A stretch of 64,000 nt of DNA from Candidatus Latescibacterota bacterium (GCA_965217865.1 CBDCJO010000002.1:1024001-1088000); one strand, 5' to 3'; shown: positions 1-64,000, counted from the first letter of the stretch. Notes: a model not told the origin generated them from the sequence alone. Made by a program: numbers and translations.

Positions 1-29
1 CACATATTCCCGCTGACAGAGAGGCGGAG

Positions 30-744
30 ATGGCAAAAACAAGGTATAGAAATCAAAATCATGTTTACCATGAACGTGATATGTTTTCCTCGCCTGCGTA
101 TCTGTCCTTGTCTGGTAAATCGATTCAAGTGCTGATGCTTTTCCACTGTAAGAAGCAAGTTGAATCTCCACCAAAAGGAACAAAGCCGGTGGATTGGCAC
201 TGGCCAATTATAAATAACGGAAAGATAACGTTTACCTACGCTGAGGCTGATCAACTAGGAATATCTAACAGGCAGTTTGCTCACGCTATTAATCAGTTGC
301 ATGATCGAGGCTTCATAAACGTGAAGCAACCTGGAGGTGGAGTCAATAAATCAGCATCCCTGTATGAGATTACCTTTCGCTGGAAACGATGGGGAAAGGA
401 AGATTTTAAAGTAAATCACCCCGCCCAAAGGGCGGGGCATTAACCACTCCCCTCCCCAAACAGATCCAACTGTAGGGGCCCTTTCTGCTCTTGAAGATGA
501 AACCGAATATATCCTCTGATCACTTTAGAAGTTACCTTTTCGACTACGGTACGGACAAAACAGCCTTTTAGCTTACCCTCAGCAAGCTAAACTTTTCCTC
601 CCCTTCCAAAGGAAGGGGTATCCAAGTTCAAATACTTTCATGAAATTGAGACCAAAACCACGATTCCGAATCCCCGGAATGGGTTTTAAACCAGGACACT
701 CACCTTACAAAAGAACGAGTGCGAATTTTCCCAAACATACATAA
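30..744 (+). pseudogene. HTH replication-initiator-like protein (phage/satellite), interrupted by the 229-bp IS200-type mini-element
   Basis: ORF 30-410 has 'SPAYLSLSGKSIQVL...NNGKITFTYAEADQLGIS...LHDRGFI...SLYEITFRW'. Removing 411-639 rejoins it in frame to MKLRPKPRFRIPGMGFKPGHSPYKRTSANFPKHT* (stop 742-744). Confidence 0.6.
411..639 (-). mobile_element. 229-bp non-autonomous IS200/IS605-family element (PATE/MITE), copy 1
   Basis: Identical by inspection to 22334-22562 and to the reverse complement of 49223-49451. Subterminal hairpins, TCAT target at the left end, ends in TTAC, no TSD. Confidence 0.9.
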
Positions 745-910
745 AGGTGTGAGGTTCACATACATAAAGGTGTGTAATGGGGGTAATTGCATACATAAAG
801 GTATGAGCTAAAAATTCTCTTAAAATTCGTGTATATCTTTTCTGTGTAGACGGATAAGAAATAAAGTTGGGCTTTATACTAATTCTGAAATCCTCATACG
901 TTTATGTACG
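735..910. repeat. Iteron-like repeats (putative replication origin)
   Basis: CATACATAAAGGT(G/A)TG at 736, 759 and 790, plus an inverted 2-mismatch copy at 893-910, followed by AT-rich GTATATATATAAT. Lies directly after the Rep-like gene. Confidence 0.65.
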
Positions 911-1202
911 GTATATATATAATCTACCATCATCTAACTGAAATGGGTAAGGCCATGCCAAGACGAACCTATCTGATAACAAGCGGTACGGTTCGCGCCT
1001 GAGCTTGGTCTATCGCGAATTTCAAGGACCTCTTTTAGGTTGCCCAAGAGATGGGGGTCCCACAGGGTGTGCCCGACGCGACTGGTTTTTGCTGAAGGCC
1101 GACAGCAGTTAAGATCCCAGGCTGCTATAATCACAGTAAATACACTAAACCTAACATAGTAACGTAAAGCTATATATCCCATTTCCATGTCCCTGTTTTG
1201 AG

Positions 1203-1964
1203 GTGCTACCAGCCATGCCAGACGAGGAACAAGGCCAAGAAACACGCGAGGAACGAGGCGCCCCAGACCAGGAGACCGAGCTTGTCCAGGTCCCGGGCTT
1301 GGACACGGAGGCCGGCCCGGCCGGGGTGCCGCTAAGGGCGAGAAAGTTCTGGAAATTGCTGTCCATGTCCCAGCGCCTGGCCTTGGAATATATCGAGGTC
1401 CACGGCCTGGCCTCGATCAAGGCCTTGGCCGAGGCTGTGGGCTTGAAGGAGCGCACTGTTCACTACTGGGCCAAGCCGAGGACGGACGGGGGCCTTGCCC
1501 GGGCCGAGGCCTGGAAAGAAGGCCTTGACGCGGCCCTGGCCTTGCGGGGGGAACTGCGGGCGATAATAAGGGAATATTGGATTGCCAGGGATGAGGAGCA
1601 AGTGAGGGAATTGCAACGGCTTTATAACAGCCTACCAGATGACTATATCGACAAGATTATCGATACTCCCAAAGTCCCAGTCCGAGGCCCTGATGGGAAA
1701 GTCACGTATCAACACGGGGCGATTGTGGACCCGACAACGGGAGGGGTCTTGGTGGCCAAGATGCCGGACGGGTCCGAGGTCCCCGTGACCAGCCTGGCGG
1801 TCCGTAAATCGAATGCAGCGGAGAAGGCAGCGCTATTGAAACAAGCCCGGGAGATGGTCCAGGGAAAGGACCCGGTGCGTGTCCGGGCCGGGGTCCACCT
1901 TGACGCGAGCCAAGGCAAGGCCGGGGTGATCCTGGAGCTTGACGGGGCCCCGGAATTCATTTGA
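1203..1964 (+). CDS. Phage/satellite protein with N-terminal HTH, terminase small subunit-like
   Basis: 'SIKALAEAVGLKERTVHYW' is HTH-like and is followed by a helical region. Lies downstream of Rep and origin. Confidence 0.4.
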   Translation: MLPAMPDEEQGQETREERGAPDQETELVQVPGLDTEAGPAGVPLRARKFWKLLSMSQRLALEYIEVHGLASIKALAEAVGLKERTVHYWAKPRTDGGLARAEAWKEGLDAALALRGELRAIIREYWIARDEEQVRELQRLYNSLPDDYIDKIIDTPKVPVRGPDGKVTYQHGAIVDPTTGGVLVAKMPDGSEVPVTSLAVRKSNAAEKAALLKQAREMVQGKDPVRVRAGVHLDASQGKAGVILELDGAPEFI

Positions 1965-2424: not shown

Positions 2425-2521
2425 TGTTAACAGCACAGTTTGCGCTGCGGCGCTGCTCGCGCCTTGGCCTTCGGCAACGCCTCGTCAAGCTCGGCGTTCG
2501 CAAACCGGCGAAACTTTAACT
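2425..2521 (+). other. attC-like integron recombination site (degenerate)
   Basis: TGTTAAC...GTTTGCG...CGCAAAC...AAAC-TTTAAC imperfect palindrome of about 97 bp immediately upstream of a gene. R' appears mutated from GTTAAC. Confidence 0.45.
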
Positions 2522-2574
2522 GCAATGGCGGCACACGTGTTAAACACCACGTATCCCAGATTCGGAGATCTGAA

Positions 2575-3165
2575 ATGTCGTTTACTACTCAGTTCGGTCC
2601 ATCTAGCGGTTCTTTGGTGATCGTCGGTGGAGGAATGAACCCAGAAATCACCGAACGATTCATCCAACTTGCAGGGGGACCAGAAGCCTCGATCGTGGTC
2701 ATCCCTACCGCAGAGACCGACGAAGAGATTCATATGACCCAGGATAAGGACGGTGTGCATCCTTTGAAAGCTGCCGGAGCTGACACCATTTCCATCCTAC
2801 ACACGAGGGACCGCGAAGTAGCTGACTCAGAGGAATTTGTGCTACCAATTCGTAAGGCTATGGGGATATGGTTTACAGGTGGGAGACACTGGCGACTGAC
2901 AGACGCATATCTCAATACTTTAGCACTCAAAGAGTTTCACGGGGTCCTACAGCGTGGTGGGGTGATTGGAGGATCCTCAGCGGGAGCCACCGTTCAAGGC
3001 TTGTATATGGTAAGAGGTGACACAAATGAGAATACAATTATGATGGGAGATCACGAGGAAGGCTTCGGTTTCATTCGCAACGTTACAATTGACCAGCATC
3101 TACTAACCCGAAATCGCCAGTTTGACCTAACAGAAGTTATAGAAGCGCATCCGGACCTGCTTGGA
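2575..3165 (+). pseudogene. Cyanophycinase / peptidase S51, 3'-truncated
   Basis: 'LVIVGGG','VVIPTA','IWFTGG','GGSSAGA' (nucleophile Ser),'IDQH'. Ends abruptly against an IS3 fragment. Confidence 0.85.
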
Positions 3166-4088
3166 TGAGCCCCGGTTGCGGCTTGCGTCGCCGACAGGCC
3201 ATCCGAAATGCCCGTAAGACCAGATCCGCCGTCATAAGACAGCCTGTGGACCAGCCTACGACTTTGCGAGCAAACAGATCCAACACCACGCACAGGTAAA
3301 GATATCCCCGTCGCGTGCGGATATAGGTGATATCCGATGCCCAGACCTTGTCCGGCTTATTCACCTGGAACTGCTGCTTCACCAGATCCCGGGACGCCAA
3401 ACCAATGCCACCTTTGGTCAGCACCCGGAACCGACGCTTCGGCTTTCCCTGGATGCCGCAGGCCCGCATCAGCCGCGCAACACGATTACGGCTGCACACA
3501 ATGCCTTCAGCCTTGAGACCCTGCGTTATCCGAGGACTGCCATACGCCCTCTTCCTGGAATGCTGATGCATTCCTCGAATGTGCTCAATCAGAGCACGAT
3601 CGCGCTTGCATCGACCACTTTCTGGCTCCTGGTGCCAGGCATAATAACCGCTTGGATCAACCTCCAGCACCCGGCACATCCGCCGTATCGGAAACTGACC
3701 CCGGTGCTCTTCGATAAAGGCGTATCTCATTGGGACCGGTTGGAGAAGTAGGCCAGCGCTTTTTTTAGGATGTCTCGCTCCTGCTCGACCTGGGAAAGCT
3801 TGCGCTTCAGATCGTAGACCTCCTGGTCTTCCGTTGTCCGCTTCCCGTGACCCGGAAACACATCATCCGGATGCTTCTGAAACTGCCCGATCCATCGATA
3901 CAACACGCCTTCTGGAATGTCCCATTCCAGGGAAACTGCCTTCACCTTCTCGCCGTCCACCAGTACCTTACGAACGGACTCCAACTTGAACTGACGATCG
4001 TACCTGCAACGACGTACCATAGAGGACACCTCCCTTAACTAATTTACTTCTCCCTTATCTGGGTGTCCACTAAATCGGGGCAAGATTA
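3166..4088 (-). mobile_element. IS3-family element, right part deleted (orfA 3727-4029, orfB partial)
   Basis: orfA HTH. orfB 'YGSPRI...WASDITYI...VVLDLFARKVVGW'. Left IR TAATCTTGCCCCGATTTAGTGGACA. Confidence 0.9.
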
Positions 4089-4160
4089 GCCGTCTCACGT
4101 CTCACATCTCACGGTTCACGTTTGACCGTTTTTCTCTCTGGCCTCTGACCCCTGACCTCC

Positions 4161-4735
4161 ATGCTCTTGACCCCCTCTTCAACCGAATTCCTCGACCTGG
4201 CCCGGACCACACTCAATCATCGACGCCAGCCCTTCCGATTCCGGGCGACCGGGACCAGCATGGAGCCCTTCATCCGGTCCGGAGACATCCTGGAACGACG
4301 CGGCAGGCGGGTCCGCCTCGACCGCGGAGCACAGCGTGCCATGCGCTGGCCGGGAGCGCGTATCCCGATCGGCAGGCGAATCTCCAGGACCCTGGGCGGA
4401 TGGGGCACTGCGATCCGCGAGCGGCTCGACCGGGACGGGGGGGACCTCCTGCGGGTCGTTTCACTCTGCGGACCGTCCGTCCGTGTGGACGGGCTTCTCC
4501 CCGAATCCGAACCCGAATGGGAAGACCTGGTCTCCGTCGCCGTAACCCGGGACCTGGCCCCGCTCCTCTATTTTCAATTCCAGCGTTCCGGGACGGAACT
4601 TCCGCTCGAAGTATCCCGGGCCCTTTCACGCGCCTACTATGGTTCCGCCGCGCGGTATGTCGTCATGATCAACGCCTTCGGAGAGGTCCTGAAAGCCATC
4701 ACCGACGCAGAGATCTTGCCCAGCACCGGAGCCCG
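4161..4735 (+). pseudogene. Deleted S26/S24 peptidase-like plus nucleotidyltransferase-family fragment
   Basis: 'FRFRATGTSMEPFIRSGDIL' followed by 'WEDLVSVA...LAPLLYFQ' segment. Both are incomplete. Confidence 0.5.
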
Positions 4736-4737
4736 CG

Positions 4738-4910
4738 ATGACGAACGGCCGTTGCCGGATGCGCGGGGGAGCATCGCCCGGCGCACCGGTCGGTAACACG
4801 AACGCCTTCAAACACGGTCTTTTCACCGCCGCGGCGATCGCCGAGCGGCGGGAAGCGGCTGCGCTCATTCGTGAGATGAAGGGCCTTGTCGAGCAGGCCG
4901 ACGGTCAAGA
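4738..4910 (+). pseudogene. HGGxSTG-motif small phage/island protein fragment
   Basis: 'GRCRMRGGASPGAPVGNTNAFKHGLFTAAAIAERR'. Confidence 0.6.
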
Positions 4911-5502
4911 CTGGACCAGCCTGTGCAGCCCGTGCGGTTTCTTTTCGCCCACTTCATACATTGGGGGGCAACTCCGGGGCCAGTTGCCGCGGCCGGGGGA
5001 AGGCAGAGTTGCGCAAGCGTAGGGCAAATCAGCCGGACCCTGAAAGGAGTTTTTCATGCCTCAAAGAATGTTGCGGCGGCGCGAAGTCGAAGCGTGAACC
5101 ACCTGTTCCCGGCGAAGGACCTGAAAGGCCGGAGGCTGCGCCAAGCTCCTACTCGCCAAGCCACGCCGGGTGCTGGTCAACCTGCCGACGGACGTCGAGG
5201 CCGTCTACCCCTGTTGCGACCTCGACGGGGAACGAGTACGCGCGAACCTGTCGTTACCCTGCCGATCCCTGCCGACGCGACGGCGAGGCGTGGGCACATC
5301 GCATGCCCGGGAATCGCTTTCCGTACCGCGTCGAGACGCTGACCGGCGACGGACGGACGGTGAAGGGGACCGATGATCCTTCCCAACGAGTTGGAGAGAG
5401 TGATCGGCCCGGTGACTTTTACGGCGCCAGCGACCTGCAGCCTGGGCGCGCGGTCTACACCCCATTCGAGGTAGTACCGCATGGGCTCGAACCGACTTGT
5501 GG

Positions 5503-5531
5503 TTGACAGATATATATCCGTGCACTATATT
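5503..5531 (+). promoter_or_regulatory. sigma70-like promoter
   Basis: TTGACA-17 bp-TATATT. Confidence 0.55.
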
Positions 5532-5584
5532 CGGTGTGTCACCCACGGGGCGGCGCAGGGATTGGCATGGCTGTGATTGCACAC

Positions 5585-5710
5585 ACGAGATAAAGAACCG
5601 GGAGGCGAGTGGACGGGCACGGCCTCCTGGACCCTGGCCCAAGCGGCGTGCGATCACATCGCCAAGTCCAAGACGTGGCCAGACAGTCCCCGGGGGTGCG
5701 GCGACGGTCC
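5585..5710 (+). ncRNA. Putative IS110-family non-coding end / bridge-RNA-like fragment
   Basis: Adjacent stems CCGGGAGGC..GCCTCCTGG and CTGGCC..GGCCAG with large loops. Resembles IS110 left ends from memory. No recombinase follows. Confidence 0.35.
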
Positions 5711-8042: not shown

Positions 8043-9419
8043 AGGTATCGGTCCGAGAGAGCCGATGCGGTGATGAGCATCGGAACTGTGGCAATGAGTA
8101 TTTACCTCTTGAATGCCTGCTTCGCGATTTTTCGCTCGTCGATGCACTTCCGGTTTTTCCAGGCGCGTCCGAGCGTTCTCCACAGGCCGCCTTCCTCAAA
8201 CGGGTTCAGGGTCGCCGCGAGCCCCAGCCTCTTGGGCGCCGGGGGGCTTGTCTTCCACACGCGGGCGGGGATCCGTAACGAGGGACCCTTCAGCTCGATC
8301 TCTTCCCCGCTCCTCTGATCGCTCACGACCAGGGCGAGCGCGATCTGCAAGTCGGGACTGTCCACGCCGAGATCTGCCGCAGGTATGCTCAGGATCGGAG
8401 CGAAGCGATAGGTGTGATCGGAAGTCGTGCGTCTCTCTTCTGGTTCCACGAAGCTGATCCAGCTGGCCTCTCCTCTCGACGTTGTCGTGAAGCGCCGGGG
8501 CGAAGGCGGCTCGCCCGGCTCACTCGCCTGGTAGGTCGCCACCTCATGTCCTTGGACGCGCCTCTCTCTCGTACGGGCCTTCATCTTCAGCATGTAGGAG
8601 GTCGCGCCCCAGTTCGTCCCGGCATGGAGCTCGAGTGCCACGAGCTCTACTCCGACCACGACTCGGGTTCCCGTGCTTGGCAGGTATCCGGCGATTACCG
8701 TGACTAGCGCGCTTGCGCGTCCATCCCCCGAGTCCATCAGCGTGTACGCTCGCGTGGTATACGGCTCCTCGTCCGCACAACTCCGACCCGGCCGGGGAAA
8801 TTTGTGCCAACTGAAGTGAGAGCGAATCTTATGACCGAGGGGTACGATATAACCATAGAGGCCGATTACTACGTCGTCGTTGAGGCGGCACCTAAATAAA
8901 AAGGATGTTGGCAAATGACCATGCATCAAAGGTGGAAAGACGACGAGGACGCCGGGATGGCCCCGTTCCAGCCGGTGACGCCCGTCAACCCGGAGAGAGC
9001 AAGAAAGTATGAGGAAGCGTTTAAAATGTATGATCTGACCGGGGACGAGAAATATCTCGACATTTTCAACCCCGTCAAGAATGAGGAGAAGAAGGATGCC
9101 TAACATGGCGCTTTTTCCCGACCGTGCCACGACAGTCCCGGCCCTTATGGGCGTGGTGGACGGGTTCCCCGACACCGTCCGCCGATTTCTCTTAACTGGT
9201 ATCGTTCGTAAGGCTGTGAATCTACCGCAAACACGTCACCTCCGACGGCTCCCCGCCTTGCGAAAAGGCCATGTTTCGCCTTGAACCCCCCTTTTCCCAG
9301 GATTAGCAGTGTCGCCGGGGTATGCGCCCCGGCCTTCGTTGAGCGGCCAGGCACGTCAACAACGCATCTTTGGTCCCTCGACCGAGGACATTGATGAAAT
9401 CAAGCGGTTGGGCGGCATC

Positions 9420-15874: not shown

Positions 15875-16590
<716 letters not shown>

Positions 16591-47639: not shown

Positions 47640-47694
47640 TTCGTCTCTCCTTTGGTTTAAAACCCTTTGGTGTCTTCAAAAGGCCTACCTCCTC

Positions 47695-49451: not shown

Positions 49452-49534
49452 TTACACGTTGAAATTTACGTACTTAAATTCATTCAACGGATAAGATTTA
49501 ATGGTAGTTATATATCTTGATGTAGCAAGGCGTT

Positions 49535-49742: not shown

Positions 49743-49913
49743 TCATTCGGGAATTATATACTTGACAAAGACTATCTTGATTTATCCCAAAGTGTTGAGT
49801 TTTTGCGAAAATCTCGCAGAATGCCCCGTCCCTTGGACTTTGATGTCCTGTTTCTATATTTGTCGGCATGAGACTGCCAACAGACTGTTTGAGTAGACAG
49901 AGCCTTCATCACT

Positions 49914-50215
49914 ACTGTCATGTCCCAGAAGTTCCTTACAAAAGAAGGTAATTAGGAAGATATTGGTACCAGATTCACCAGATATGAAGCAATAATTGGG
50001 AAGAGATCCTCGTCTTCCTGGTTGAATCTGAACTCTGTTTCCTTCAGGTATAAATGGAAATGATGTCGAGGGATCCCTCTGTATTGATATAGCCAATTTT
50101 CAGAAAAACTCCAGAAGCCTTCGATGCCATTGATGTGATGTCGGCCTTTGCCTTTGGGCACCCCTTCTTCTTTTCGAACAACCACGTGGTCACCTTTGAC
50201 TGACACAGCCAAGTA
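49914..50215 (-). mobile_element. IS1595-family transposase C-terminal fragment
   Basis: 'HINGIEGFWSF..WLYQYRGIPRHHFHLYLKETEFRFN'. A related piece lies at 57324-57408. Confidence 0.8.
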
Positions 50216-50498
50216 TAGGCGTGCCAGTCATCGGTATCTTTTAATTAGGTATCGCATGAATGGGCAACGAGTATTCTCGTTTCCCCCGACTATGCCCGGG
50301 AGATTGCTAGCGTACAACGTGACGCAACCTTTCATTCCTGCCGATACTTGTCGCCCGCATGAGGGTTTCGATGGGTGTGTTGTCGGGGTTCAACATCTTG
50401 GTAGTCTTTGTGAAAGGCGGTGACGTGTCAGGGGATGTCGTATGAGATTGAGACCAGGAACCTAGGGTCACATCCTGAGGGGGGTAAATGGCACTCGG

Positions 50499-50660
50499 AT
50501 CGCGAGGGGCTTGAGAGGTAATGGACAGTAGGAGCAATGGAAGTACGCACCCCAGCATACCGAAACTGAGGGCGGATGACCGCAAGGGAGCAGGCTGTAG
50601 AAGCCGTCAGGTGGGGGAGGACGACCGGGTCATGAACCGTCGGATACCGCCCGCCATCGC
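50499..50660 (+). ncRNA. Group II intron 5' (domain I) fragment, with a short inverted RT remnant
   Basis: GCTTGAGAGGTAATGGACAGTAG...AAGTACGCACCCCAGCA...CTGTAGAAGCCGTCAGG resembles IIB intron 5' ends from memory. A frameshifted 'GIPTVHD.VV'-like piece lies on the minus strand. Confidence 0.4.
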
Positions 50661-50837
50661 GACGTGGCTGTTTGTTACTGCTTACGATAAATTTGATAGT
50701 TATATACTCGGTAGCATCCGGGCTGGGAAATTGAATCGTTGTGGGGACGGCTACAGCACTGCCAGGTGTAGCGCCAATTGAGGTAATCGCCATCCATTTT
50801 GCAGGACGCTTTTAGGACTTGCCCAGATCCGTGGGTC

Positions 50838-51240
50838 GGCGGAACATGCCAACAATTTTGAGACACTGAAAGTTGGAATTCAGTGCAGTTTCCGGCCGTC
50901 TCCATAAGAGGTGTCATCGGCACCGTGGATCCCCGTGCAGGTATCGGGACCAAGTTCGATTTGGTATCACCTGGCGTAATAACGATTGGATCGTGCCGGT
51001 ACTTATCCGAGATCCGGGGTGGATTGATCCAGACCTCGGAAGGCAGGTCGGTTGGCAGCGGGGGACCCTGCACAAAACGTTCGGGGTGGGCGATATAGGC
51101 ACGCCACAGGGTCTGCTCACGGGCGGCAAGGATTTCCTTGGCGTAGCTATAGTGCACAGATTCCGGGGTCAGCAAGCCCAGGCCTGAGTGGCGATGCTCT
51201 GTGTTGTAGTAGGTGAAGAACTCATGGCAGAATTCTTGAT
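50838..51240 (-). mobile_element. IS3-family C-terminal fragment with right IR
   Basis: 'YYNTEHRHSGLGLLTPESVH...HPERFV...VWINPP'. End TGTCTCAAAATTGTTGGCATGTTCCG. Confidence 0.75.
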
Positions 51241-51379
51241 GAACCAGATAACCCCGGAGGAACAGGCCGCAAACCATAAAGATTTTACAAGATCCTCTTC
51301 CTACTTCTTGAAATCCGCTCAATTAAAATTGCCAGGTATCAGAATGCTCACCCGATTGCCGTGTTAAGAATAAGTTCCC

Positions 51380-52879
51380 TTATCGTGGATCATATTTGAG
51401 GAAAGAGACATAAGCACCCACAAAAAAAACAACGGCTAAAACCGCCAACAGCATCAAATCTATGTTTACACGTCCCATTATATCGGAAAGACTCTCTTTT
51501 TGATATTTGAATATCGGCATATCACTGATATCCACTGTTTTCTGTTTTGTGGTTGGTCTGGAACGACCTTCCAAAATGGGGGAAAATACAACTCTTCCAA
51601 GAGTTTCTTCCTTTGATTTTAAATAAGATGTAAAAATATCTTTGTGTGCGCGGGCCAAATTAAGGAAGTGCTCCTGGCTTTCGATACCCGTACCAGCTAT
51701 GTTCATGGAGGCAAGGGTCATAATCGAGGTAGGAGAGATTCGTGATAGACCCAAGGCTAACTTGGCTAAACGCTCTTGTTTATTGTGATAATCCTTCTCC
51801 ATTCTTGCACTTTCAACCTTCTTTTCAGCATCCATCCGAACTTTATACTCATCTAGCAAGGCTTGCTGCTTTGCCGTCCACTCGGAAAAGGTCTTTCTGT
51901 ATTGGGCTATAATCTTTTCTCGCTTTCCACTTGGAGTACCTGGCTCTATTTTAGGGGATCGGGGTGCAGGGTTTTCCATATCAATTTGTTTTAGATATGG
52001 AATAAAGTTTAGTTCAATATCTCTCTGAACCTGACTCGACTGCATGCGATACTGGTGAATTGAGGGCACCTGAATGAATTGGCTGGCAAGAATCACACTT
52101 CCCTTTGGGATCACCAGTGTCCAAACAACCCATATTAACAATAGTACCAAAAATGAAATGTTCGACCGACTTGTGCTGGCGGAGACGAACATTCCGAGGT
52201 TAAAAAAAACCGCAAGGTATAGGACAAAAACACAAAAGATCAACAACAGTTGGATTATGTCTTGGCTGTCCGGTTGGAAATCAGGGGAGATCGTGAGCAA
52301 CGCAAAACCTAGACAAACCGGGATACTCAAAGGTATCATCAAGCTAAGGAAACCACCGACCATCTTGCCCAGGATAAGAGTGTCTCGCGGCACTCGGTGA
52401 GACAGTATCAGCCCTAGGGTGCCATCTTCCTTCTCACCGGAGATGGAGTTATAGGTAAACAGGATGGCCATCAGGCTAAAAACGACCTTAACAAGAAAAG
52501 CCATATCCAAGTCCCCGAAAATACCAAAGATCGGATTTCCTTCGATTTTTCCTCCTGTGGGCGTAGGATTTCTATAACTTTTTACCGATATATGACGCCC
52601 TAGACTGTTTTCTAAACCCGATACGATGATGCTGGGAACTCCCGGAGGCTTACTTAGTTGCACTCCTGTGTTTGAAATTGCCAAGTAACTGGTTTGCTCC
52701 TTTAAGATCTCTCGACTAAGTTCCTTGGTCGTCCTGTATTCGGCAACTTTATCGTTGTAGTTGCGCATGCCTGTGTACAGGCTCAAGAGAATCAGGAAAA
52801 AGCAGAAGATTAAAGTTCCATAGAATTTGGGGCTGGAGAGATTGGCTAAAATCTCTTTGCTGAGAATGTGTCCAAACAT
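51380..52879 (-). CDS. ABC-2 type transporter permease
   Basis: 'VFSLMAILFTYNSISGEKEDGTLGLILS..VPR..LILGK', multiple TM segments, C-terminal 'FLKYDPR'. Confidence 0.88.
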   Translation of the reverse strand: MFGHILSKEILANLSSPKFYGTLIFCFFLILLSLYTGMRNYNDKVAEYRTTKELSREILKEQTSYLAISNTGVQLSKPPGVPSIIVSGLENSLGRHISVKSYRNPTPTGGKIEGNPIFGIFGDLDMAFLVKVVFSLMAILFTYNSISGEKEDGTLGLILSHRVPRDTLILGKMVGGFLSLMIPLSIPVCLGFALLTISPDFQPDSQDIIQLLLIFCVFVLYLAVFFNLGMFVSASTSRSNISFLVLLLIWVVWTLVIPKGSVILASQFIQVPSIHQYRMQSSQVQRDIELNFIPYLKQIDMENPAPRSPKIEPGTPSGKREKIIAQYRKTFSEWTAKQQALLDEYKVRMDAEKKVESARMEKDYHNKQERLAKLALGLSRISPTSIMTLASMNIAGTGIESQEHFLNLARAHKDIFTSYLKSKEETLGRVVFSPILEGRSRPTTKQKTVDISDMPIFKYQKESLSDIMGRVNIDLMLLAVLAVVFFVGAYVSFLKYDPR

Positions 52880-53093
52880 GCCGTCCTTCAAAACTCCCCT
52901 GATTATGTGTTTGCGACTCAAAGACTTCGATAAAAATCTTTCTATTTAGATTTCCAGTGTACGATACATTGTGGCGCTACATCCATCTTTCCTCTGTACC
53001 AAACGAAAATATAAGCAAGGTTCGTTTGATTTGACAATTTTCAATTATAACCCAGAAAAAGATAACACGAGTTCAATAAGGAAGTGCAACACT

Positions 53094-53312
53094 TGGGATA
53101 GTTTTTGTTCTATCCTAAGTGTATGGGAAACAATTATAAACACCTTACGGCTGACGAGAGGGACCATATTTGTGCGCTTCGAGCATCAGGTAAGTCTCTA
53201 GGCGATATTGCCAAGAGCCTCTGCCGGAACAAGAGCACCATTTCCAGAGAGCTCAAGCGCAACCGGTCCTCGGTTTACAACTACTACTGTTCAAACCAGG
53301 CTCAGCAACGGG
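53094..53312 (+). mobile_element. IS30-family 5' fragment
   Basis: 'YKHLTADERDHI...SLGDIAKSLCRNKSTISRELKRN'. Confidence 0.85.
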
Positions 53313-53599
53313 CCGGGCTGCAAGCCATCGTTTGACTTTAGAGTGCTTGTGCGTGCCAAGTTGTCCAGGATCAGGTGAATTATCGAGTGGAACCATAAGA
53401 CAAATCCATTACTTTATCATGTTATTTATGGGACAAACACTTGTTGCCAGTTCCATAATTACTCATAACGCATCACTGCTGTCCAAGATAAATCAGATTC
53501 GCGTAAGCGACGGGTGCGAAATCCTTACTCGCCTCGTACATACGATAACGGATGCCATCGGTAACGACCACGTCACACGACACGCCGAGGGCGGAGAAC

Positions 53600-54241: not shown

Positions 54242-55489
54242 TCACCTTGGATCGTAGATCGCCCCCAGGAAGAGGATGGTCCCACTCAGCCGTTCCCGGA
54301 TTGCGAGCAGGAACGGCCGGTCCACCTTAATGCCGCTCGGCCCTGCCGATGACGGACCCATGCGCACCGATGTAGCGGCCGCCGCTACCGTTCCTTCCTC
54401 GTCCACCTTCAGGAACGTTTTGTGCTTGACCTGAGAGATGTGTGTCTCCGGGACAGAAGTGAGCCTGGAGAAATCCGCCGCTTTGGGATCGAACGCCGCC
54501 CCCATGCCCATCTCAACAAGTGGGGTGTTCAGCAAGGCGTCGTACTCCTGCTCAAACGCCGGCAGCTGCACGGGCAGTTCCCGAAACTCGATCCCATTCG
54601 TCCACTCGTCCCACTGCGCTAGATCGATGCTGTTCACCAGGTCCGCCAGACCGCCTCCAGGGCGCGGCTGCAAGATCACCATCGTGAACGCCTCCGCCCC
54701 GTACGGCAGCTCGGCAATCTGCAATCCCTTTGCGAACCCGGTTGCTCCACGCCCATTCGGATTGAACATCGCCGGCACGTACACAGGATCGGTGCTTCCT
54801 TCCAGGAAGAACGGTCGGGAGTCCGTCTTTGCTGGATCGAACTGGACCGTCCAATCTCCCTCGAAGTAAACAGCGTTCAGGAGAAAGAGGTTGGTGTACC
54901 GGTCAATCCTCTGGACGATCGATTCGATGCGACCGCGGGTCTGCTCTTTCACCCAACCGTTGATGGTCTCCCTGGCGCCGGGATCGGCGAAGTCGAGCGC
55001 CTGAGCTTTGGCATCGAAGTACGTGCGGATGGCGTCGAAAAAGCTCGTCTCGAACGTAACTCCCTGTCGTATCCACACCGAACTGGCGACTGCGATCTGC
55101 ACGCTTGGATCCAGCGTAAATAGAAGGTCGTGCAACCCTCGGTAGCCCTCGTTGATCTCGCCCATCGCCATGCCGGATAGCTGGAGCCCCGAGCGCATCG
55201 CCTCAAACGTCTCCCCCGCAGCGCCGTTCAGGGTCATTCCAAGCGCCATCGACACGCTCAGCGGAGACACGAACACATTCCTACCCGGTTCGGTTTCTTC
55301 TGCCACCTCGCGCAGCAGTTCAAAAGCGAAGACGTTGTTGGCATGGATCGCCGCGTCCTCGCTTGCCGTCAGCGGCCGGGGCAACTTTGTGAGGGGTTCC
55401 TGCGGTCCAACGGGGTTGCTCGTGCAGGCGACAAAACCAAGCATCGTCGCCCCAACAAGCGCCGTCAAGGTCCAGTTGAGTGCAGACAT
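54242..55489 (-). CDS. Serpin family lipoprotein
   Basis: Lipobox 'LGFVAC','NVFVSPLSV..ALGM','LLNAVYFEGDW', hinge 'VDEEGTVAAAAT','VDRPFLLAIRE'. Confidence 0.93.
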   Translation of the reverse strand: MSALNWTLTALVGATMLGFVACTSNPVGPQEPLTKLPRPLTASEDAAIHANNVFAFELLREVAEETEPGRNVFVSPLSVSMALGMTLNGAAGETFEAMRSGLQLSGMAMGEINEGYRGLHDLLFTLDPSVQIAVASSVWIRQGVTFETSFFDAIRTYFDAKAQALDFADPGARETINGWVKEQTRGRIESIVQRIDRYTNLFLLNAVYFEGDWTVQFDPAKTDSRPFFLEGSTDPVYVPAMFNPNGRGATGFAKGLQIAELPYGAEAFTMVILQPRPGGGLADLVNSIDLAQWDEWTNGIEFRELPVQLPAFEQEYDALLNTPLVEMGMGAAFDPKAADFSRLTSVPETHISQVKHKTFLKVDEEGTVAAAATSVRMGPSSAGPSGIKVDRPFLLAIRERLSGTILFLGAIYDPR

Positions 55490-55904
55490 TAGCGGTAATG
55501 GATCAAGTGGATGTCGGCGCGGTGTGTTGCAGTTGTGCGTCTGGTTGGCCCTACGGTGGCGGAGATTCAACCTCTTCGGACCGTCCGACACCCAGGCCGC
55601 AACACTGCAACGGGTGCATTCTCTTCAATGTATATCCAGTATATCCGACGCCCGGGGATCTCCCAAGTTTCGTTTTTTCAGGGGTGGCATGTTGATGATG
55701 CCTGCCGCATCCTTTCACCAGGACCTTTCAGGCACACCTTTCTCCACACTATCTGTATCTATATCAACATGTTACGCTGTGTTGGTGGAAGGGTGAAGGA
55801 TTTTCAGAAAATCTCCCCGCATAGAGCGATGAAAAAAACCTTGGAGTATCGCGGACGTCCCACGGGCCACAAAAAATCACGGCCCCACACGCCCCACATC
55901 GTTG

Positions 55905-56020
55905 GCCAACCCCTGGTGTTCTCTGGAGCTCGTCGCGGTCGATTGAGTGACGTGGCACTGACGAAGGCGGTACGGGTCTTCGATCTGACGGCCACGGTGC
56001 ACGGGTTCCGATTTTCCTGA
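55905..56020 (+). pseudogene. Phage integrase fragment
   Basis: 'LVFSG..RLSDVAL...TATVHGFR'. Confidence 0.55.
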
Positions 56021-56559
56021 CTCAAGGAGTTCCAGCTTTAGCTTCGTGCTTGCCATCTTACATTGAAGCTATTGGAAAAACTGGTGGAGGCATAATCTGT
56101 AATTATAAATTCGATTGGGAAGTTGCACTTGACCAAGTCTTGAAAAATCGGCAGATTTTAAAGGATTGTTCCATTAATGCAAAGCGGGGGATGCTATCAT
56201 ATTCGACTGAATTAATAACACAAAAGTACATACAACTATTCCAAAGCCTAAGTGGGACCGGGTTTTAAATCTAAAATAGATGTGGGGTATAGTAACTTGG
56301 AAGTGCCAAAAGCCGAGCGCACAAAACTAGCCTCCCCAAAATCTAATCATATACTGCCGAAAAGTTAGCTCCGCAACACAAGGATACAGGCTCTTGCCAT
56401 CGGACCACCCCAAACCTGCTTTGTAGGTTTGGGGCAGCATTAGAATCCCACAACCAGCGCTTCTGCTACAGGCGCACGAAAACCCATTATTATCTTCTTT
56501 ATTCTCTCAACACAATCATCAAGGTAAAAGGATACACTTTTTTGTTGAAAGGTTTGAGA

Positions 56560-57294
56560 ATGTCTAAGAGGAAGACAAAAAGGGCCTTAGTAATAATCCC
56601 AACTTATAATGAACGAGAAAACGTTGAACGGATAGTCCAAGCAATTTTGCCAGTGGACCTGCGCATTAGTATCCTAATTGTGGATGACAATTCCCCTGAT
56701 GGAACGGGCGAGATTGCTGAGAACCTAGCCAAGTTGTACGACAAAGTTTACGTATTACACCGGGAAAAAAAAGAAGGGATCGGAAGAGCTTATATTGCAG
56801 GGTTCAAATGGGCAATTGAAAGGAAATTCAATTACATTTTTGAGATGGATGCTGACTTTTCTCATCGACCCCAATATTTGGAAGACCATTTGAGGGAAAT
56901 AGAAAACCACGACTTGGTGCTGGGTTCAAGGTACATAACGGGGGTAAATGTTATTAACTGGCCAATAACGAGGCTTTTACTGTCCTACTATGCCAATGTA
57001 TATGCTCGGTTGGTAACTGGAATGCCGGTGAGAGATGCCACAGGTGGATTTAAGTGCTTTCGCCGAGAGGCCTTGGTGGCTATTGATCTTGAAAGTCTTC
57101 ATGCATCTGGCTATGCATTTCAGATTGAAGTTACAATGCGAATATGGAAGAAGGGATTCAGGATAAAAGAAATTCCTATCATATTTTATGATCGCACAGC
57201 AGGTGATTCAAAGATGTCAAAAAGAATCATGGGTGAAGCCATTTGGACAGTATGGTTGTTGCGCATCAAATCGATCTTTGGATTGTTGACTTAA
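56560..57294 (+). CDS. Polyprenol-monophosphomannose synthase-like GT2 glycosyltransferase
   Basis: 'IIPTYNERENV','IVDDNSPDGT','EMDADFSH','DATGGFKCFR','GYAFQIE'. Confidence 0.92.
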   Translation: MSKRKTKRALVIIPTYNERENVERIVQAILPVDLRISILIVDDNSPDGTGEIAENLAKLYDKVYVLHREKKEGIGRAYIAGFKWAIERKFNYIFEMDADFSHRPQYLEDHLREIENHDLVLGSRYITGVNVINWPITRLLLSYYANVYARLVTGMPVRDATGGFKCFRREALVAIDLESLHASGYAFQIEVTMRIWKKGFRIKEIPIIFYDRTAGDSKMSKRIMGEAIWTVWLLRIKSIFGLLT

Positions 57295-57408
57295 CAATGA
57301 CATGCTCAACCGGCCTCTAAAAATTGGTATGTCAATACAGAGGAATCCCTCGACATCAGTTCCATTTATCCCTGAAGGAAATAGAGTTCAGATTTAACCA
57401 CGAAGACC

Positions 57409-58045
57409 AGCGCCCGGCTTGGCACATGTTTCTTGTGCAACTTGGCGCACTTGCGCTGTGGGCGGCGAAGCGCAACGACCTGTCAGTGGATGCGGCGGAC
57501 TGGGCAGTTGACCTGCGGAGATTGACTCGGGATCATACCGACGACGCGCCATGGCGGCTCACTATAGACGAACGGGAAAAACCAGCCTTCCTGCAGCCGC
57601 CGGACCCGGGAGGCCTTAAATGGTCCGCCGTGGCGACGCCCGATGCGCTCGACATGCTGATCACTTCGAAGAATCACGACCTGAAACAATCTGTGGCGAA
57701 GCGGGCGACACCGGAGGATTGGGTGTGCGCGCTGGTGTCGCTGCAAACGTCCGAGGGCTATGGCGGCGCAGGAAACCAGGGTGTTGCGCGCATGAACGGC
57801 GGCTCATCCAGCCGCCCGATGTTGGGGCTTACCCCCGGTCGGGACAAGGACATTTCGGTTGATCCTTCCGCGTGGTGGGCGCGGGACGTGCGACGGCTGG
57901 TTGAGGCGCGCGCGACAGGACAGAGGAGCGGGATCGGTGCCGTGGCCGGACCGGCACTTTTGTGGTGTCTCGACTGGCCGGAAGGCCGGCAACTCGACCT
58001 GCGCGACCTGGACCCGTGGTTCATTGAGGTCTGCCGGCGAGCCGT
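57409..58045 (+). pseudogene. casA: Type I-E CasA/Cse1 (Cas8e) fragment fused to an IS1595 fragment
   Basis: 'QRPAWHMFLVQLGALAL','PAFLQPP','TPDALDMLITSKNHDLK','LVSLQTSEGYGGAGN.GVARMNGG','PWFIEVCRR'. Confidence 0.75.
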
Positions 58046-58310
58046 TGGGGGCGGTTGATTGATTTCCAACTGTATGACGTCCCATAACGTTCTCGAGTCC
58101 GGTTACTATTGTACCAAGTACTTCAACAGGTTTACTTGGCTTCACACCTAGTCTATCAACGAATCTGTAGCTTGTTTGCTCACTCAAGATCTGTCGGTTT
58201 AATGTTTCAGTCTGCCGGAAAACGCCGCATTAGGAGACGATCCGGTCCAGGATGGAGTGTCGAGAAAATGTCCTTGATAGTATATGACGGTTAGACTATA
58301 TTGTTAAATC

Positions 58311-58545
58311 ATGAACTGGGAAGTCGGATTTGATCCGGCCTTCGACTCGGAATTCGATGCCCTGCCCACCCGCAGTGCAGGATGAGCTACTTGCTCAAGC
58401 GAAGCTTCTTGAGACATTCGGACCGTCTCTGGGCCGTCCACGGGTGGACACTCTGGACGGGTCGCGCCACGCCAACATGAAAGAGCTTCGCTTTAACGCC
58501 GCCGACGGCGTGTGGCGGGTCGCCTTTTTCCTTTGACCCCAAGGG
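58311..58545 (+). pseudogene. RelE/ParE-like (Gp49/HigB) toxin, frameshifted and truncated
   Basis: 'FGPSLGRPRVDTLDGSRHANMKELRF..ADGVWRVAF'. Confidence 0.8.
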
Positions 58546-58661
58546 GAGCCATCCTGCTTGTGACCGGCTGAAAAGTGACGATCGAGAAGATGAAATAAGA
58601 GCGGATTTAGATGCTCTGGGTCCGGTGTAAGTTGCTATAAGGAAGCAAGGAGGCCTCTCAA

Positions 58662-59315
58662 ATGGTTGAATTGATAAACGTTTCACAAAAAACACACTTG
58701 AAGCGTCTTTTTGGTGTTGTTTCAAATGGCCAAACCTATCTCAATGTGATTTACCTGCTATTGGCTTTCCCTCTGGGACTGGTTTATTTCGTTTTCCTGG
58801 TAACGGGGTTGTCCCTGGGGATTGGCTTGATCATCATAGGTATTGGTATTCCAATACTACTGTTGATGATGACATCATGGTGGGGATTGGCATCATTCGA
58901 ACGTAAAATAACGATATGGCTGCTGCGTGTAGAGGATATACCTCCAATGTTAACCAAAACAAAATCAAGAAAGGGCATATGGGAGCGGTTCGGATATTAC
59001 CTGAGCAATCCTGTGACGTGGAAAAGCTTGGTCTACCTTTGCGCAAGGTTTCCGCTTGGGTTACTTTCATTCATTGTTTCGGTTATTCTGATATCGCTGA
59101 CAACAGGGATGGTGGCTGCGCCGGTAATCTATGAGAGCCATACATTGAACGTCGGCTTTTGGCAGGTAGACACTTTGGGAGAGGCTCTGATCTGCTCAAT
59201 TCTGGGAGTTGGCGTGGGTTTAATTTCAATCCACGTGATGAATAGTCTTGCATTCGTATCGGGCAGGTTTGCCAGTTTGATGCTGGGTCCTGCTCTACAT
59301 TCGTCCCCAAAATGA
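58662..59315 (+). CDS. Membrane 'sensor'-domain protein
   Basis: 'TYLNVIYLLLAFPLGL','LASFER','TWKSLVYL..RFPLG', 4 TM segments, RBS GGAGG. Confidence 0.8.
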   Translation: MVELINVSQKTHLKRLFGVVSNGQTYLNVIYLLLAFPLGLVYFVFLVTGLSLGIGLIIIGIGIPILLLMMTSWWGLASFERKITIWLLRVEDIPPMLTKTKSRKGIWERFGYYLSNPVTWKSLVYLCARFPLGLLSFIVSVILISLTTGMVAAPVIYESHTLNVGFWQVDTLGEALICSILGVGVGLISIHVMNSLAFVSGRFASLMLGPALHSSPK

Positions 59316-59585
59316 TTCCATCCAGGGGTTGTCTCGGGCTCCGTTTTCGGCATAGGAGACCCAACCCCCTTCTCCCTGAATAGGATGCGGCGTAACCAGG
59401 TGTAGCTTTGTGTAGACAGAATCCCCTGTCGGCCACGGCCCGAGCCACCCACCCATTTGCTCTCAATATCCAGGAGGCCGTCAGATGGGCCTTCCGGGCG
59501 CCACGGGCATAGATCAGTTCTGTGAAGTCGGTCGTAAAGGCCTAAACACTCAATGAATTGGCGGCCTTTCACCAAATTCGCCTGG

Positions 59586-59848
59586 GATCCCGCAACAGGG
59601 TTTGCCAGGAGAGCTTGCTCTCACGCTGGCCGTCCTCGATAGCGATGACTTCCTTGCAGCCATCAGCCGTTGCACCGACCAGCACGAGCACACAGGGCCG
59701 ATTCTTATCCAGGCGCACGTTGAAATAGATCCCGTCCGCCCACACATACACGTCGTGTTTTCCGGTCAGGTCGCGCTGCTTCCAGCTCTTATACTCATCT
59801 TCCCAGATTTGCTTCAGCCTGGTGACATTAGTCGGTGATAAACCCGAG
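59586..59848 (-). mobile_element. IS256-family transposase internal fragment
   Basis: 'GLSPTNVTRLK...RDL...YVWADGIYFNVR...GQRESKLSW'. Confidence 0.85.
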
Positions 59849-61090: not shown

Positions 61091-62618
61091 GCAGCCTGTT
61101 GAAAAAGTGCGTTTATGCCAAGATGACTGTTGTCTTTCCTTGTGGTTTGGTCCTATGATATATCAGGTTCAAACTGAGAAGGGAGGACGAGCAAATGGCA
61201 ATGGGAAAACGAGGACGACAGAGACAGGAAAACCTGTTCATCGCATCGAACACTTTGGTGAAATCTCCGGGTCATCCGTTCTACGAGAAGCTGAATCAGG
61301 TATTGGGGGCGAACGGCTTCGACGAGTTCGTCGAGGGGCTTTGCCAGCGGTATTACGCTCCTCATATGGGTCGCAAGGGCATTCCGCCCGGGGTTTATTT
61401 TCGGATGCTTTTGATTGGGTATTTCGAGGGACTTGATTCGGAACGTGGGATCGAATGGCGTGTATCTGACTCGCTGACGTTGCGCCGGTTTTTGGGGTAT
61501 GCCCTTGACGAACAGACCCCGGATCATTCCAGCCTGTCTCGCATCCGGCATCGGCTTCCCTTGGAAGTTCACGAAGCGGTTTTCAAGTGGATCCTGAGGG
61601 TCTTGTGCAAAGCGGGTCTGGTGAAGGGGAAGACGTTGGGCGTGGATGCTACGACACTGGAGGCCAACGCCGCGATGCGCAGCATTGTACGCCGTGACAC
61701 GGGTGAAGGCTACCAGGCATTCCTTGAGAATCTGGCCAAGGCCTCGGGCATTGAAACGCCTACCCGCGAGGACTTGTCCAAGATCGATAAGAAGCGACCG
61801 AAGAAGGGATCGAACCAGGACTGGGAGCACCCGCACGACCCGGATGCCAAGATCGCTAAGATGAAGGACGGTCGCACGCACATGGCGCACAAGGTGGAGC
61901 ACGCGGTGGATCTGGACACCAATGCCATTGTGGCAGTGGCGTTGTCGGGAGCAGATGAAGGAGATACCGAGTCGTTGCCCTGGACGCTGCTCGAGGCGCA
62001 GCTCAATCTCAAGCAGGTCGCGAAGGACGAAAAAGCTGCTAAGCGTTTGCACAGACAGCGTATACGGGAGGTGGTTGCGGACAAAGGATATCATAGCAAC
62101 GATGTATTGACCAGTCTGAAGCAAGGCGGCATCCGGAGTTACATTTCAGAACCGGATCGGGGACGCCGCAAGTGGAACGGCCGACGAGATGAGCAGGCCG
62201 CGGTATATGCGAATCGACGCCGGATCAAGGGAGATCGCGGCAAGGCCTTGCGCCGAAGTCGTGCAGAACGGGTGGAAAGAACCATCGCTCACACATATGA
62301 TACCGGTGGCATGCGCAGGTTGCACTTGAGAGACCGCGGCAATATCCTCAAGCGTTTGCTGATCCACATCGGGGGCTGCAACCTGGCTCTGCTCATGCGC
62401 AAAGTGATGGGCGTAGGTACTCCGAAGGCCCTCCAGGACCTGGCCAAGGCCTTGCAGCGTCTACTGCTCGTCCTACAATCACGTTTGCTGCCCTCGGTCA
62501 CCTTTTTAACCTCTTATCAGCGTCTCCTGCTCAATCTCCTTACCTTGATTTATCTGACCCGCACTCCAGGCGTCTTTTCCGTTTATGTGCGTTGAAAGGT
62601 AGTTCTTCAACGGGCTGA
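61091..62618 (+). mobile_element. IS1182/IS5-like element, copy 3 (transposase 61195-62595)
   Basis: Identical 466-aa protein, same IRs, CTAG target. Confidence 0.93.
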
Positions 62619-62772
62619 TAGGGAGCTAATTCTCCCCTTTCCCACCTCTCAGCGGCCAGCCACCGGCTTTCCGCAGCGCGTTGGATTCTAGGTATCCCCC
62701 CACACCCCTGAATCGCCTGAATCCGTAAATCGTTTATTTCCACAGGCTTCTGTGATTTCTTTGGGTTTTCCA

Positions 62773-62823
62773 CGAACATTCACCCCTACTCAATTTCGAT
62801 CTATTTCGAACATTCACCCCTAC
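62773..62823. repeat. 17-bp direct repeats, putative iterons downstream of repA
   Basis: CGAACATTCACCCCTAC at 62773 and 62807. Confidence 0.6.
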
Positions 62824-63661
62824 CATACAAGTAAAGTACATTGGCAGTCAAATAGTCCAAAGCCATTTCTGGACCGTTCCCTGGCAGCATGGGAACCGAT
62901 AATAGCGGAAGCGAAGTTGTGAGCAAGGCAAATCTATGCCCAAGCGTTGGGTGGATTTCTTGCGACGCGCACCGGTAAAATATGTTCATACCGTCACCGA
63001 TCTTCTTTAATATATCTGCAAAGAGGACTCGAGAACCGGGGTTATTTTCTTGGAATACCGGTTGCGCCCAAACATAATCTCTAATTCCCGACCCAAACTT
63101 CTCCTTATACGTTGACTTCATATGGGAGATTACCGATTCAGCATAGTGAGGTTCCTTACCTGATCGTCCACATAATTCGTTATAGGATTCCTTTTGGCGA
63201 ATCCAAGAACGCAACAGCGTGCTGCTGATGTAGTCGCGGAACACTTGCGGATGTTCACTGCAAAATCGTGCAAGGAATTCACAGACCACGTGAGCTTCAT
63301 ATAGCGTGCGCCATAGTTGCCAGCCTGCCCAGTAAGATTTTTCTATAAGAAGTCCTATAGCGTTCGCCTGTTGACTCGCGTTCGTGTACAGGTGCATGAA
63401 TACGTAGGACTTAGCCGCTTGGAGATCGTACGTCTCATTGAGACATTGATGAAGAATATCTTCTTCGGCAAACCAACTTGGGCGACACACGAGGTCCTTC
63501 TCAAGGTCTGCACTAAAGTAAGCGGTTTCTCTGATTAGCTCTTCGAGTATTTGGATTCTATGGGGCTTCCAATCAGGTTTCTGGCCACTACGCTCCATGT
63601 GCCTCTCTAGCCAATAGTTCTTCATTTTGAAACCTCGTTCCCCTCGAGGATGGCCAGCCAC
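62801..63661 (-). CDS. Hypothetical protein (DUF5677/HEPN-like), probably 3'-truncated
   Basis: 'AIGLLIE...QLWRTLYE','FYRCASQEIH'. Confidence 0.5.
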   Translation of the reverse strand: MAGHPRGERGFKMKNYWLERHMERSGQKPDWKPHRIQILEELIRETAYFSADLEKDLVCRPSWFAEEDILHQCLNETYDLQAAKSYVFMHLYTNASQQANAIGLLIEKSYWAGWQLWRTLYEAHVVCEFLARFCSEHPQVFRDYISSTLLRSWIRQKESYNELCGRSGKEPHYAESVISHMKSTYKEKFGSGIRDYVWAQPVFQENNPGSRVLFADILKKIGDGMNIFYRCASQEIHPTLGHRFALLTTSLPLLSVPMLPGNGPEMALDYLTANVLYLYGRGECSK

Positions 63662-64000
63662 GGGCGAGTCCTGGCCTCACTAAAGCGACTGATAGAGTCA
63701 GGGGGGACGCCGGTGCCCTTAGAGGGGATCATTTCATAACTTTCGGGTTTAATATCAGTAATACCTCTGAAAACACAGGATTTTTGAGGAGCTTCGATTC
63801 CGGGTTAACGTGGGATTCGGTCGCCCCTTCGCTCAAAAATCTGATAATTACCGGATTCGATGCCTCCATGGACGGTCAGACCATCTACGCGAATGCACGG
63901 GATTCCTTTGTGATACAAATATCCGCCGACGGGGGGGCCAACTGGACCACGACGGAAATCAACCAGGCCAACGGTCCTGTCGCGGTTTCTCCTTCGGATT

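What the first reader, a model, noticed from the sequence alone, without database searches (positions are those of the whole stretch)
1..64000. Whole window is a dense archive of shredded mobile-element and defence genes
Seen: dozens of roughly 0.1-1 kb fragments are joined directly, usually with no IS end at the junction, and composition shifts abruptly. They include integrases, hsdR, cas3, casA, HerA, OLD ATPase, DUF499, repA, toxins and IS3/30/110/256/630/1595/L3. Several genes are also internally deleted. Yet the same young elements (IS1182-like three times, mini-IS200 three times, ISL3 with TSD) are inserted cleanly across different fragments, which suggests they share one genome. Inference: this is either a region that accumulates foreign DNA by end-joining or microhomology capture, or extreme deletional erosion of stacked islands. 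One junction (3162-3165, TGGA) fits both partners, consistent with microhomology. A memory, decoy or guide-source role is speculative. Amplification or assembly chimerism is the main alternative.
Basis: partly seen in the sequence, partly recalled or inferred. Interest (0 to 1): 0.7.

Follow-up and report, generated by a model that had tools for sequence, protein, structure and literature searches.

The report
Blunt-joined scrapyard of captured DNA
This real 64-kb stretch is one of about twenty patchwork zones, together a quarter of this bacterium's chromosome, where wrecked mobile elements and short copied pieces of host genes are glued end to end with almost no shared sequence, likely by the cell's DNA end-joining repair, and nothing found suggests the patchwork has a job.

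Summary
The patchwork is real. Junctions recur base for base in public runs of two to three studies, and young IS copies sit in it with target duplications. It is not wholly shredded: about 18 kb is whole-looking genes and 6.6 kb intact IS. The window is a degraded island behind tRNA-Leu, one of about 20 zones (1.6 Mb) that share pieces. It holds remnants of a tRNA-Asn serine-recombinase element family with 38 att-arm sites in this genome. Erosion occurs, but three events need insertion: a 154-bp copy of host DNA replacing 150 bp with 1-bp overlaps, a 45-bp internal IS piece between unrelated flanks, and a band-7 operon allele under purifying selection (22 synonymous, 7 other changes) joined bluntly. 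Genome-wide, 42 of 49 clean joints share 0-2 bp, so the joining is end-joining-like rather than microhomology capture. Intact Ku-LigD lies 11 kb away (inherited, 8 of 30 relatives); its role is inferred. No Argonaute; no support for memory or decoy roles. The scan earlier noted similar patchworks and tRNA-Asn stacks in other genomes, without this junction evidence.

The parts
1..1964 (+). tRNA-proximal remnant of a satellite-like element (replication-type HTH ORF 30-443, ORF 1203-1964), continuing 1.8 kb left to tRNA-Leu(CAA) at C2:1022147-1022230; an HTH_17 ORF lies in that 1.8 kb; no integrase and no second att copy found
   Evidence: ORF roles inferred, no Pfam or PHROG hit
409..645 (.). 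mini IS200/IS605-type element, copy 1 (others 22332-22567, 49219-49453; related left end 36854-37117)
2425..3165 (+). attC-like repeat plus cyanophycinase gene cut at residue 197 of 272
   Evidence: intact with other flanks in run X8
3164..4123 (-). IS3-family element lacking one end; 2-bp (GA) joint to cyanophycinase
   Evidence: joint bridged by X2 contig 2349-3206
4157..4716 (+). 5' part of a host S24-peptidase/nucleotidyltransferase gene (intact copy beside ruvC/yebC, C2:3026760-3028445, 98-99%), with an in-frame 192-bp deletion at GACATCCTG
4716..5654 (-). remnant of the right end of the tRNA-Asn serine-recombinase element family
   Evidence: maps 433-1198 bp before att cores at 6 sites
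9181..9345 (.). CRISPR leader-like stretch and lone repeat, 100% identical to C2:2442384-2442548
   Evidence: the repeat carries spacers in other contigs
11183..13339 (-). intact recD2 helicase; its 5' 319 bp is copied at C2:2525672-2525990, joined there to a copy of window 38300-40385
14661..14705 (-). 45-bp internal piece (positions 942-986) of a young 1,837-bp IS, 100% identical, between unrelated flanks: filler-type insert
15797..16607 (+). hsdR N-terminal fragment, frameshifted
17495..19860 (-). two tyrosine-integrase C-terminal fragments flanking a whole-looking ParA and partner pair
   Evidence: bridged by X1 17931-19634 and X2 17879-19006
19968..21651 (-). 154-bp captured copy (100%) of C2:795655-795808, the 3' tail downstream of a PcRGLX-like host gene, replacing 150 bp of the DUF4932 gene end; 1-bp overlap at each joint; later split by IS1182 (20035-21560, duplication CTAT)
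22819..24145 (-). ISL3 with 8-bp target duplication
25211..25747 (-). cas3 HD-domain fragment, 98.8% identical to the truncated cas3 at C2:138640-140247
28607..30132 (+). IS1182 copy 2 (copy 3 at 61092-62617); about 95 copies genome-wide
32236..33303 (-). chimeric frame: HerA piece (301 bases shorter than in run X8) fused to a carbon-nitrogen hydrolase piece
34341..34715 (+). DUF2924 fragment of the tRNA-Asn recombinase module
34716..36584 (+). 5'-truncated band-7 (SPFH) operon, 97.4% identical to the intact resident operon at C2:4.425-4.429 Mb, dN/dS about 0.1, joined with 0-bp overlap
37117..37353 (+). second right-end remnant of the tRNA-Asn element family
37547..38089 (+). DUF6176 gene bounded by inverted GTTATGC/GCATAAC ends (cassette-like), followed by a lone CRISPR repeat at about 38146-38177
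38300..40385 (+). 2,086-bp mosaic chunk, 100% identical at C2:2523587-2525672
41062..41282 (+). left-arm remnant of the tRNA-Asn att site, 1-bp joint to an IS3 fragment
42776..45538 (+). intact TonB-dependent receptor, shared with runs X6 and X8
46705..53593 (+). 6.9-kb mosaic chunk (IS3 end, ABC-transporter genes, mini-IS200, IS1595/IS3/IS30 scraps) duplicated at C2:3764207-3772627 with 2 mismatches; 1-bp joint to an IS630 fragment at 46705
54242..57294 (.). whole-looking serpin and glycosyltransferase genes
57321..59846 (.). cas8e (casA) fragment, Gp49/HigB-like toxin piece, sensor-domain piece, IS256 piece; HicA piece follows at 59842-60105

Best explanation
The window is a dead island behind tRNA-Leu in which remnants of integrative elements and IS, and short pieces copied from other zones, from the host chromosome and likely from kin cells, are joined with 0-2 shared bases, most likely because double-strand breaks there are repaired by Ku-LigD end joining that both deletes and patches in loose DNA. 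SHOWN: the joints; three insertions that deletion alone does not readily give; IS truncation far higher in zones than outside; an intact TPR-Ku-LigD locus. INFERRED: (a) integrative elements first made large dispensable regions, above all the tandem stack at tRNA-Asn; (b) transposases, recombinases and restriction attack break DNA there; (c) the loose DNA is mostly broken-down mobile DNA and only sometimes core DNA; (d) scars persist because they are neutral and are purged elsewhere; (e) Ku-LigD is the ligase. Small in-gene deletions with 7-17 bp repeats are a second, slippage-like process. The patchwork most likely has no function of its own, though whole genes inside it may.
For: Replacement event: 154 bp, 100% identical to C2:795655-795808, in place of 150 bp that the copy at C2:3.255 Mb still holds as the DUF4932 C-terminus; 1-bp overlaps at both joints. 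Band-7 piece: 22 synonymous and 7 non-synonymous differences from the resident operon over 347 and 1,078 sites, 0-bp joint. Ten young IS families: zones 97 full, 44 one-ended, 17 internal; outside 121, 14, 1 (one duplicate IS1182 reference dropped). All 17 internal pieces have unrelated flanks; 6 are 100 bp or shorter (P=0.004 under two uniform breaks); about 2.5 are expected under a uniform rate. 49 clean three-way joints of 57 called: overlaps 0:19, 1:13, 2:10, 3:2, 4:2, 5:1, 13:1, 25:1. Only 12 of 141 blocks shared between zones have a collinear companion within 20 kb (shuffle 7.6 +/- 3.7), and median block length is 0.4-0.9 kb in every identity class. Recent duplications reach at most 7.3 kb, and 52 of 66 ends are not element ends. 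Single Ku and full-length LigD at C2:1098732-1101949. The same scar types (0-6 bp homology, 30-83 bp inserts, one from a transposase gene, deletions up to 23 kb) were reported for NHEJ in Streptomyces (PMC5869714, section 5 read); NHEJ capture was shown in Sinorhizobium (PMC6379672, passages).
Against: No test ties Ku-LigD to the joints. Ku is in 8 of 30 relatives, with the TPR gene beside it in 5 of 6 loci, yet most sampled stretches of Ku-positive relatives are gene-dense, so Ku is not sufficient and its nearness to the window may be chance. With strongly uneven break rates (gamma shape 0.5), erosion alone predicts about 14 internal IS pieces, and IS1182-calibrated erosion can also give kilobase-sized blocks. 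The HFIR paper reports no junction homology in 3 of 4 E. coli events, so blunt joints are not unique to Ku-LigD. Single unmatched bases at joints (3 of 49) are not clearly above background divergence (my estimate). Five of the 49 joints are ends of small elements. Zones were defined by shared low-copy repeats, which partly shapes the block statistics. The 154-bp joints were not among the read-supported pieces listed.
Confidence: 0.6

Rival explanations
1. Erosion only: whole elements integrated in tandem or into each other and were cut down by large RecA-independent deletions; pieces shared between zones descend from duplicated or related elements, and nothing was captured as a small piece.
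For: 38 att-arm sites, the first nine co-oriented behind tRNA-Asn at 12-46 kb spacing (assumes the C1-C2 join through a 6.3-kb overlap). 39 of 56 relatives of the recombinase sit behind tRNA-Asn. In-place deletions are shown. Uneven rates can explain the internal-IS count. This is the known CIME route (PMC5704250 and PMC7563491, passages).
Against: It cannot easily give a 154-bp 100% copy replacing 150 bp. About 90% of shared blocks lack collinear companions. The window has no paired att sites. Host-gene pieces are present.
Confidence: 0.22
2. Natural transformation with homology-facilitated illegitimate recombination: DNA from lysed kin anchors on a shared repeat at one end and joins by short homology at the other, so junk breeds junk.
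For: comEC and recA are intact. The band-7 allele came from a diverged functional copy. 14 of 66 recent block ends lie at repeats.
Against: HFIR joints mostly show 3-10 bp homology (PMC3240628, passages); here only 5 of 49 share 3-10 bp. Inserts of 45 and 154 bp have no anchor.
Confidence: 0.1
3. IS-driven shuffling (adjacent deletions, one-ended or rolling-circle transposition of IS91 type) builds the patchwork.
For: More than 200 full-length young IS copies; zones are IS-rich. An earlier AI note on another genome invoked IS91 ends.
Against: No Y2 transposase hit (the control rang nowhere, so this is weak). Most block ends and joints are not IS ends.
Confidence: 0.04
4. The zone is a selected archive that serves as immune memory, decoy or guide source.
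For: Defence and mobile-element fragments are enriched. Some joints persist across samples and studies.
Against: No Piwi domain (control found 2 of 14). No regular spacing, leader or common insertion site. Host metabolic pieces are included. Other strains hold the same pieces in other contexts.
Confidence: 0.03
5. Amplification or assembly chimera.
For: The assembly shows 9.3% contamination. In run X1 the contigs over 16.7-19.6 kb have about half the depth of those over 0.6-3.2 kb (contig depth is a weak measure).
Against: 7 runs from 6 samples in 2 studies hold at least 55% of the words of window 1-10000. Identical contigs from separate studies cross joints. An IS1182 with target duplication sits inside the captured 154 bp.
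Confidence: 0.01

Closest known systems
CIMEs and tandem accretion of integrative elements (ICESt1/ICESt3 relatives; PMC5704250, PMC7563491, passages read)
   Same: Integrase-less remnants and att junctions stacked at a tRNA 3' end, including roughly 180-bp mini-units between two cores, like microCIMEs.
   Different: Those arrays hold 2-3 elements in the survey read; here 38 arm sites are spread over a dozen zones, the recombinase is a large serine recombinase with DUF2924, and interiors are shredded to about 250-bp pieces. The window itself has only arm remnants, no att pair.
Bacterial NHEJ repair scars and DNA capture (Streptomyces ambofaciens PMC5869714, section 5 and passages; Sinorhizobium meliloti PMC6379672, passages)
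   Same: 0-6 bp junction homology, large deletions, 30-83 bp endogenous inserts including transposase DNA, Ku and LigD present.
   Different: Those were induced laboratory breaks. Here the scars are natural, accumulated over about 1.6 Mb, and enzyme dependence is untested.
Homology-facilitated illegitimate recombination (PMC3240628, passages)
   Same: Insertion coupled to a deletion of similar size; uptake of kin DNA.
   Different: It needs a homologous anchor and mostly 3-10 bp microhomology; the joints here are mostly 0-2 bp and small inserts lack anchors.
Degraded IS fossil record of Wolbachia (PMC3205602, passages)
   Same: Many truncated IS copies retained.
   Different: There decay is by substitution and deletion over time; here 97-100%-identical internal pieces of young IS lie between unrelated flanks, confined to zones.

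Membership tests
CIME / tandem-accretion array | Located at the 3' end of a target tRNA gene | tested here: met
   Starts 1.8 kb behind tRNA-Leu(CAA); the related array starts at tRNA-Asn
CIME / tandem-accretion array | Element bounded by retained attL and attR | tested here: not met
   No second copy of the tRNA-Leu 3' end (11-18 nt) within 108 kb; only arm remnants of the tRNA-Asn family in the window. Met for the tRNA-Asn array elsewhere.
CIME / tandem-accretion array | Integrase lost | tested here: met
   Only integrase and DUF2924 fragments in the window
NHEJ-mediated capture | Ku and LigD encoded and intact | tested here: met
   Ku 285 aa over the cut-off; LigD 774 aa with three domains and a KxDGxR motif
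NHEJ-mediated capture | Joints blunt or with 1-6 bp homology | tested here: met
   47 of 49 clean joints share 0-5 bp
NHEJ-mediated capture | Templated inserts at deletion scars | tested here: met
   154-bp replacement; 32-99 bp IS pieces
NHEJ-mediated capture | Non-templated single-base additions | tested here: inconclusive
   3 of 49 joints show one unmatched base, near background
NHEJ-mediated capture | Dependence on ku/ligD | not testable with these tools
   Needs genetics or many conspecific genomes
HFIR | 3-10 bp microhomology at the illegitimate joint | tested here: not met
   5 of 49
HFIR | Homologous anchor at one end | tested here: inconclusive
   14 of 66 recent block ends at repeats; none for the 45- and 154-bp inserts
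HFIR | DNA-uptake and RecA genes | tested here: met
   comEC and recA; competence itself untested
IS91 rolling-circle capture | Y2 transposase in the genome | tested here: inconclusive
   No hit, and the control was silent
Argonaute guide source / piRNA-cluster-like archive | Argonaute gene | tested here: not met
   0 Piwi matches; genome 96% complete
Argonaute guide source / piRNA-cluster-like archive | Small RNAs from the locus | not testable with these tools
   Only contig-level RNA runs with small shares
Integron cassette array | attC hairpins in series with IntI | tested here: not met
   Isolated attC-like sites (label recalled); the folds tried were not better than shuffles; no intact integrase in the window
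MDA or assembly chimera | Joints absent from independent libraries | tested here: not met
   Joints reproduced in runs X1, X2, X6, X7 and X8

The most novel reading that the evidence does not exclude
A quarter of a natural bacterial chromosome is being continually rebuilt by Ku-LigD end joining that swallows 30-bp to 7-kb scraps of its own, kin and mobile DNA: a bacterial counterpart of eukaryotic filler-DNA scars at megabase scale, seeded by a 38-unit serine-recombinase stack at tRNA-Asn, and a working route to homology-free gene transfer and in-frame chimeric genes such as the new DUF4932 tail.
Probability: 0.35. Interest if true: 0.72.

Novelty: new variant of a known kind. Interest (0 to 1): 0.5.

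Why it matters
Whether bacterial NHEJ brings in DNA in nature has rested on laboratory breaks and genome-level correlation (as described in PMC6379672 and PMC5869714). Here donors and recipients of many joints lie in one near-complete genome, so junction rules can be read directly and followed across strains in existing public runs. It also warns that 'defence islands' and gene fusions called in such zones can be scrap. If erosion alone explains it, it is an unusually large but ordinary mobile-element graveyard.

Tried and rejected
Rfam scan: 0 matches. attR search for tRNA-Leu: none. An inversion reading of 4732/37127 was dropped: the two remnants overlap on the parent and are separate copies. 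A 209-bp insert at C2:317213 first looked like core capture but sits before ATGAA at both loci, so it was treated as a small element. The first overlap histograms were distorted by end mismatches and were replaced by the breakpoint caller; 8 of 57 joints were dropped there (3 with related parents, 5 unresolved). The genome-wide replacement search was swamped by IS and att repeats and was not counted. The 28-mer search for core donors was dominated by small intergenic repeats and paralogues; it shows few clear core donors but gives no clean count. CRISPR self-targeting as the breaker: 2 of 35 spacers match the genome outside arrays, but the adjacent cas3 is truncated. A metagenome scan for other strains' tRNA-Leu alleles found 0. 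attC folds were not significant. Long-ORF cover in 20 stretches of 6 relatives (2 as low as the window) is confounded by GC and was chosen around homologues, so it is weak. Literature: ten searches listed no paper describing such zones; the library lacks most subscription papers and no supplements were read.

Full report
Setting. The window is G000:C2:1024001-1088000 in a 6.43-Mb, two-contig genome with one rRNA operon and 50 tRNA genes. It begins 1.8 kb behind tRNA-Leu(CAA), and gene-dense DNA lies on both sides. Lineage and habitat were not determined. By my own threshold on shared low-copy repeats, the genome has 20 such zones totalling 1.61 Mb (25%). Long-ORF cover is 0.61 inside them and 0.77 outside. 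The window fills one zone almost exactly.

Noticed in passing
G000 C1:620047 onward into C2 (to about 630 kb) and other zones; example L003:460-3550: 38 att-arm sites of a DUF2924/large-serine-recombinase family at tRNA-Asn, with nested mini-units of about 180 bp between two GGAGCC cores; 26 of 37 copies leave the intact module at +263 to +295 and share a second arm type, which suggests a recombinase-less sub-family.
   Followed up: partly
G000:C2:317213-317426 and C2:2852460-2852673: A 209-bp segment, 100% identical, sits directly before ATGAA in two unrelated genes and is absent from a sister copy at C2:1780552: a possible small mobile leader.
   Followed up: partly
G000:C2:140203-141024: Type I-E-like CRISPR array beside a truncated cas3; two of its 13 spacers match the chromosome perfectly (C2:3321103 and C2:5507873).
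   Followed up: partly
window 9309-9345, 11081-11109, 38146-38177: Three lone CRISPR repeats of different types; two of them carry spacers in contigs of other runs.
   Followed up: partly
L002:10732-13949: TPR-Ku-LigD block conserved in class relatives; absent from both searched genomes of the same family (fragmented assemblies).
   Followed up: yes
G000:C2:1830702-1884000: A second pair of DUF2924/serine-recombinase modules at tmRNA, with the tmRNA 3' end repeated at C2:1881711: a two-element tandem.
   Followed up: no
L013:1-9000 (G011): A Ku-positive relative has about 9 kb of fragmentary DNA beside a related att arm and a type I-C cas cluster, about 34 kb from its Ku gene.
   Followed up: partly
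window 21561-22442: The captured 154 bp gives the DUF4932 frame a new in-frame proline-rich tail; its 5' part is interrupted by mini-IS200, so expression is doubtful.
   Followed up: partly
L002:642-2209 and 5947-7334: Two glycoside-hydrolase-32-like genes right of the window are each split in two frames: frameshifts or consensus errors.
   Followed up: no
L001:257-3058: Fused inositol-phosphate cytidylyltransferase / CDP-alcohol phosphotransferase-like gene (below the family cut-off), near a T9SS sortase-like protein.
   Followed up: no
window 16698-19634: In run X1, contig depth here is about half that at 616-3193, a weak hint that only part of that population carries this stretch.
   Followed up: no
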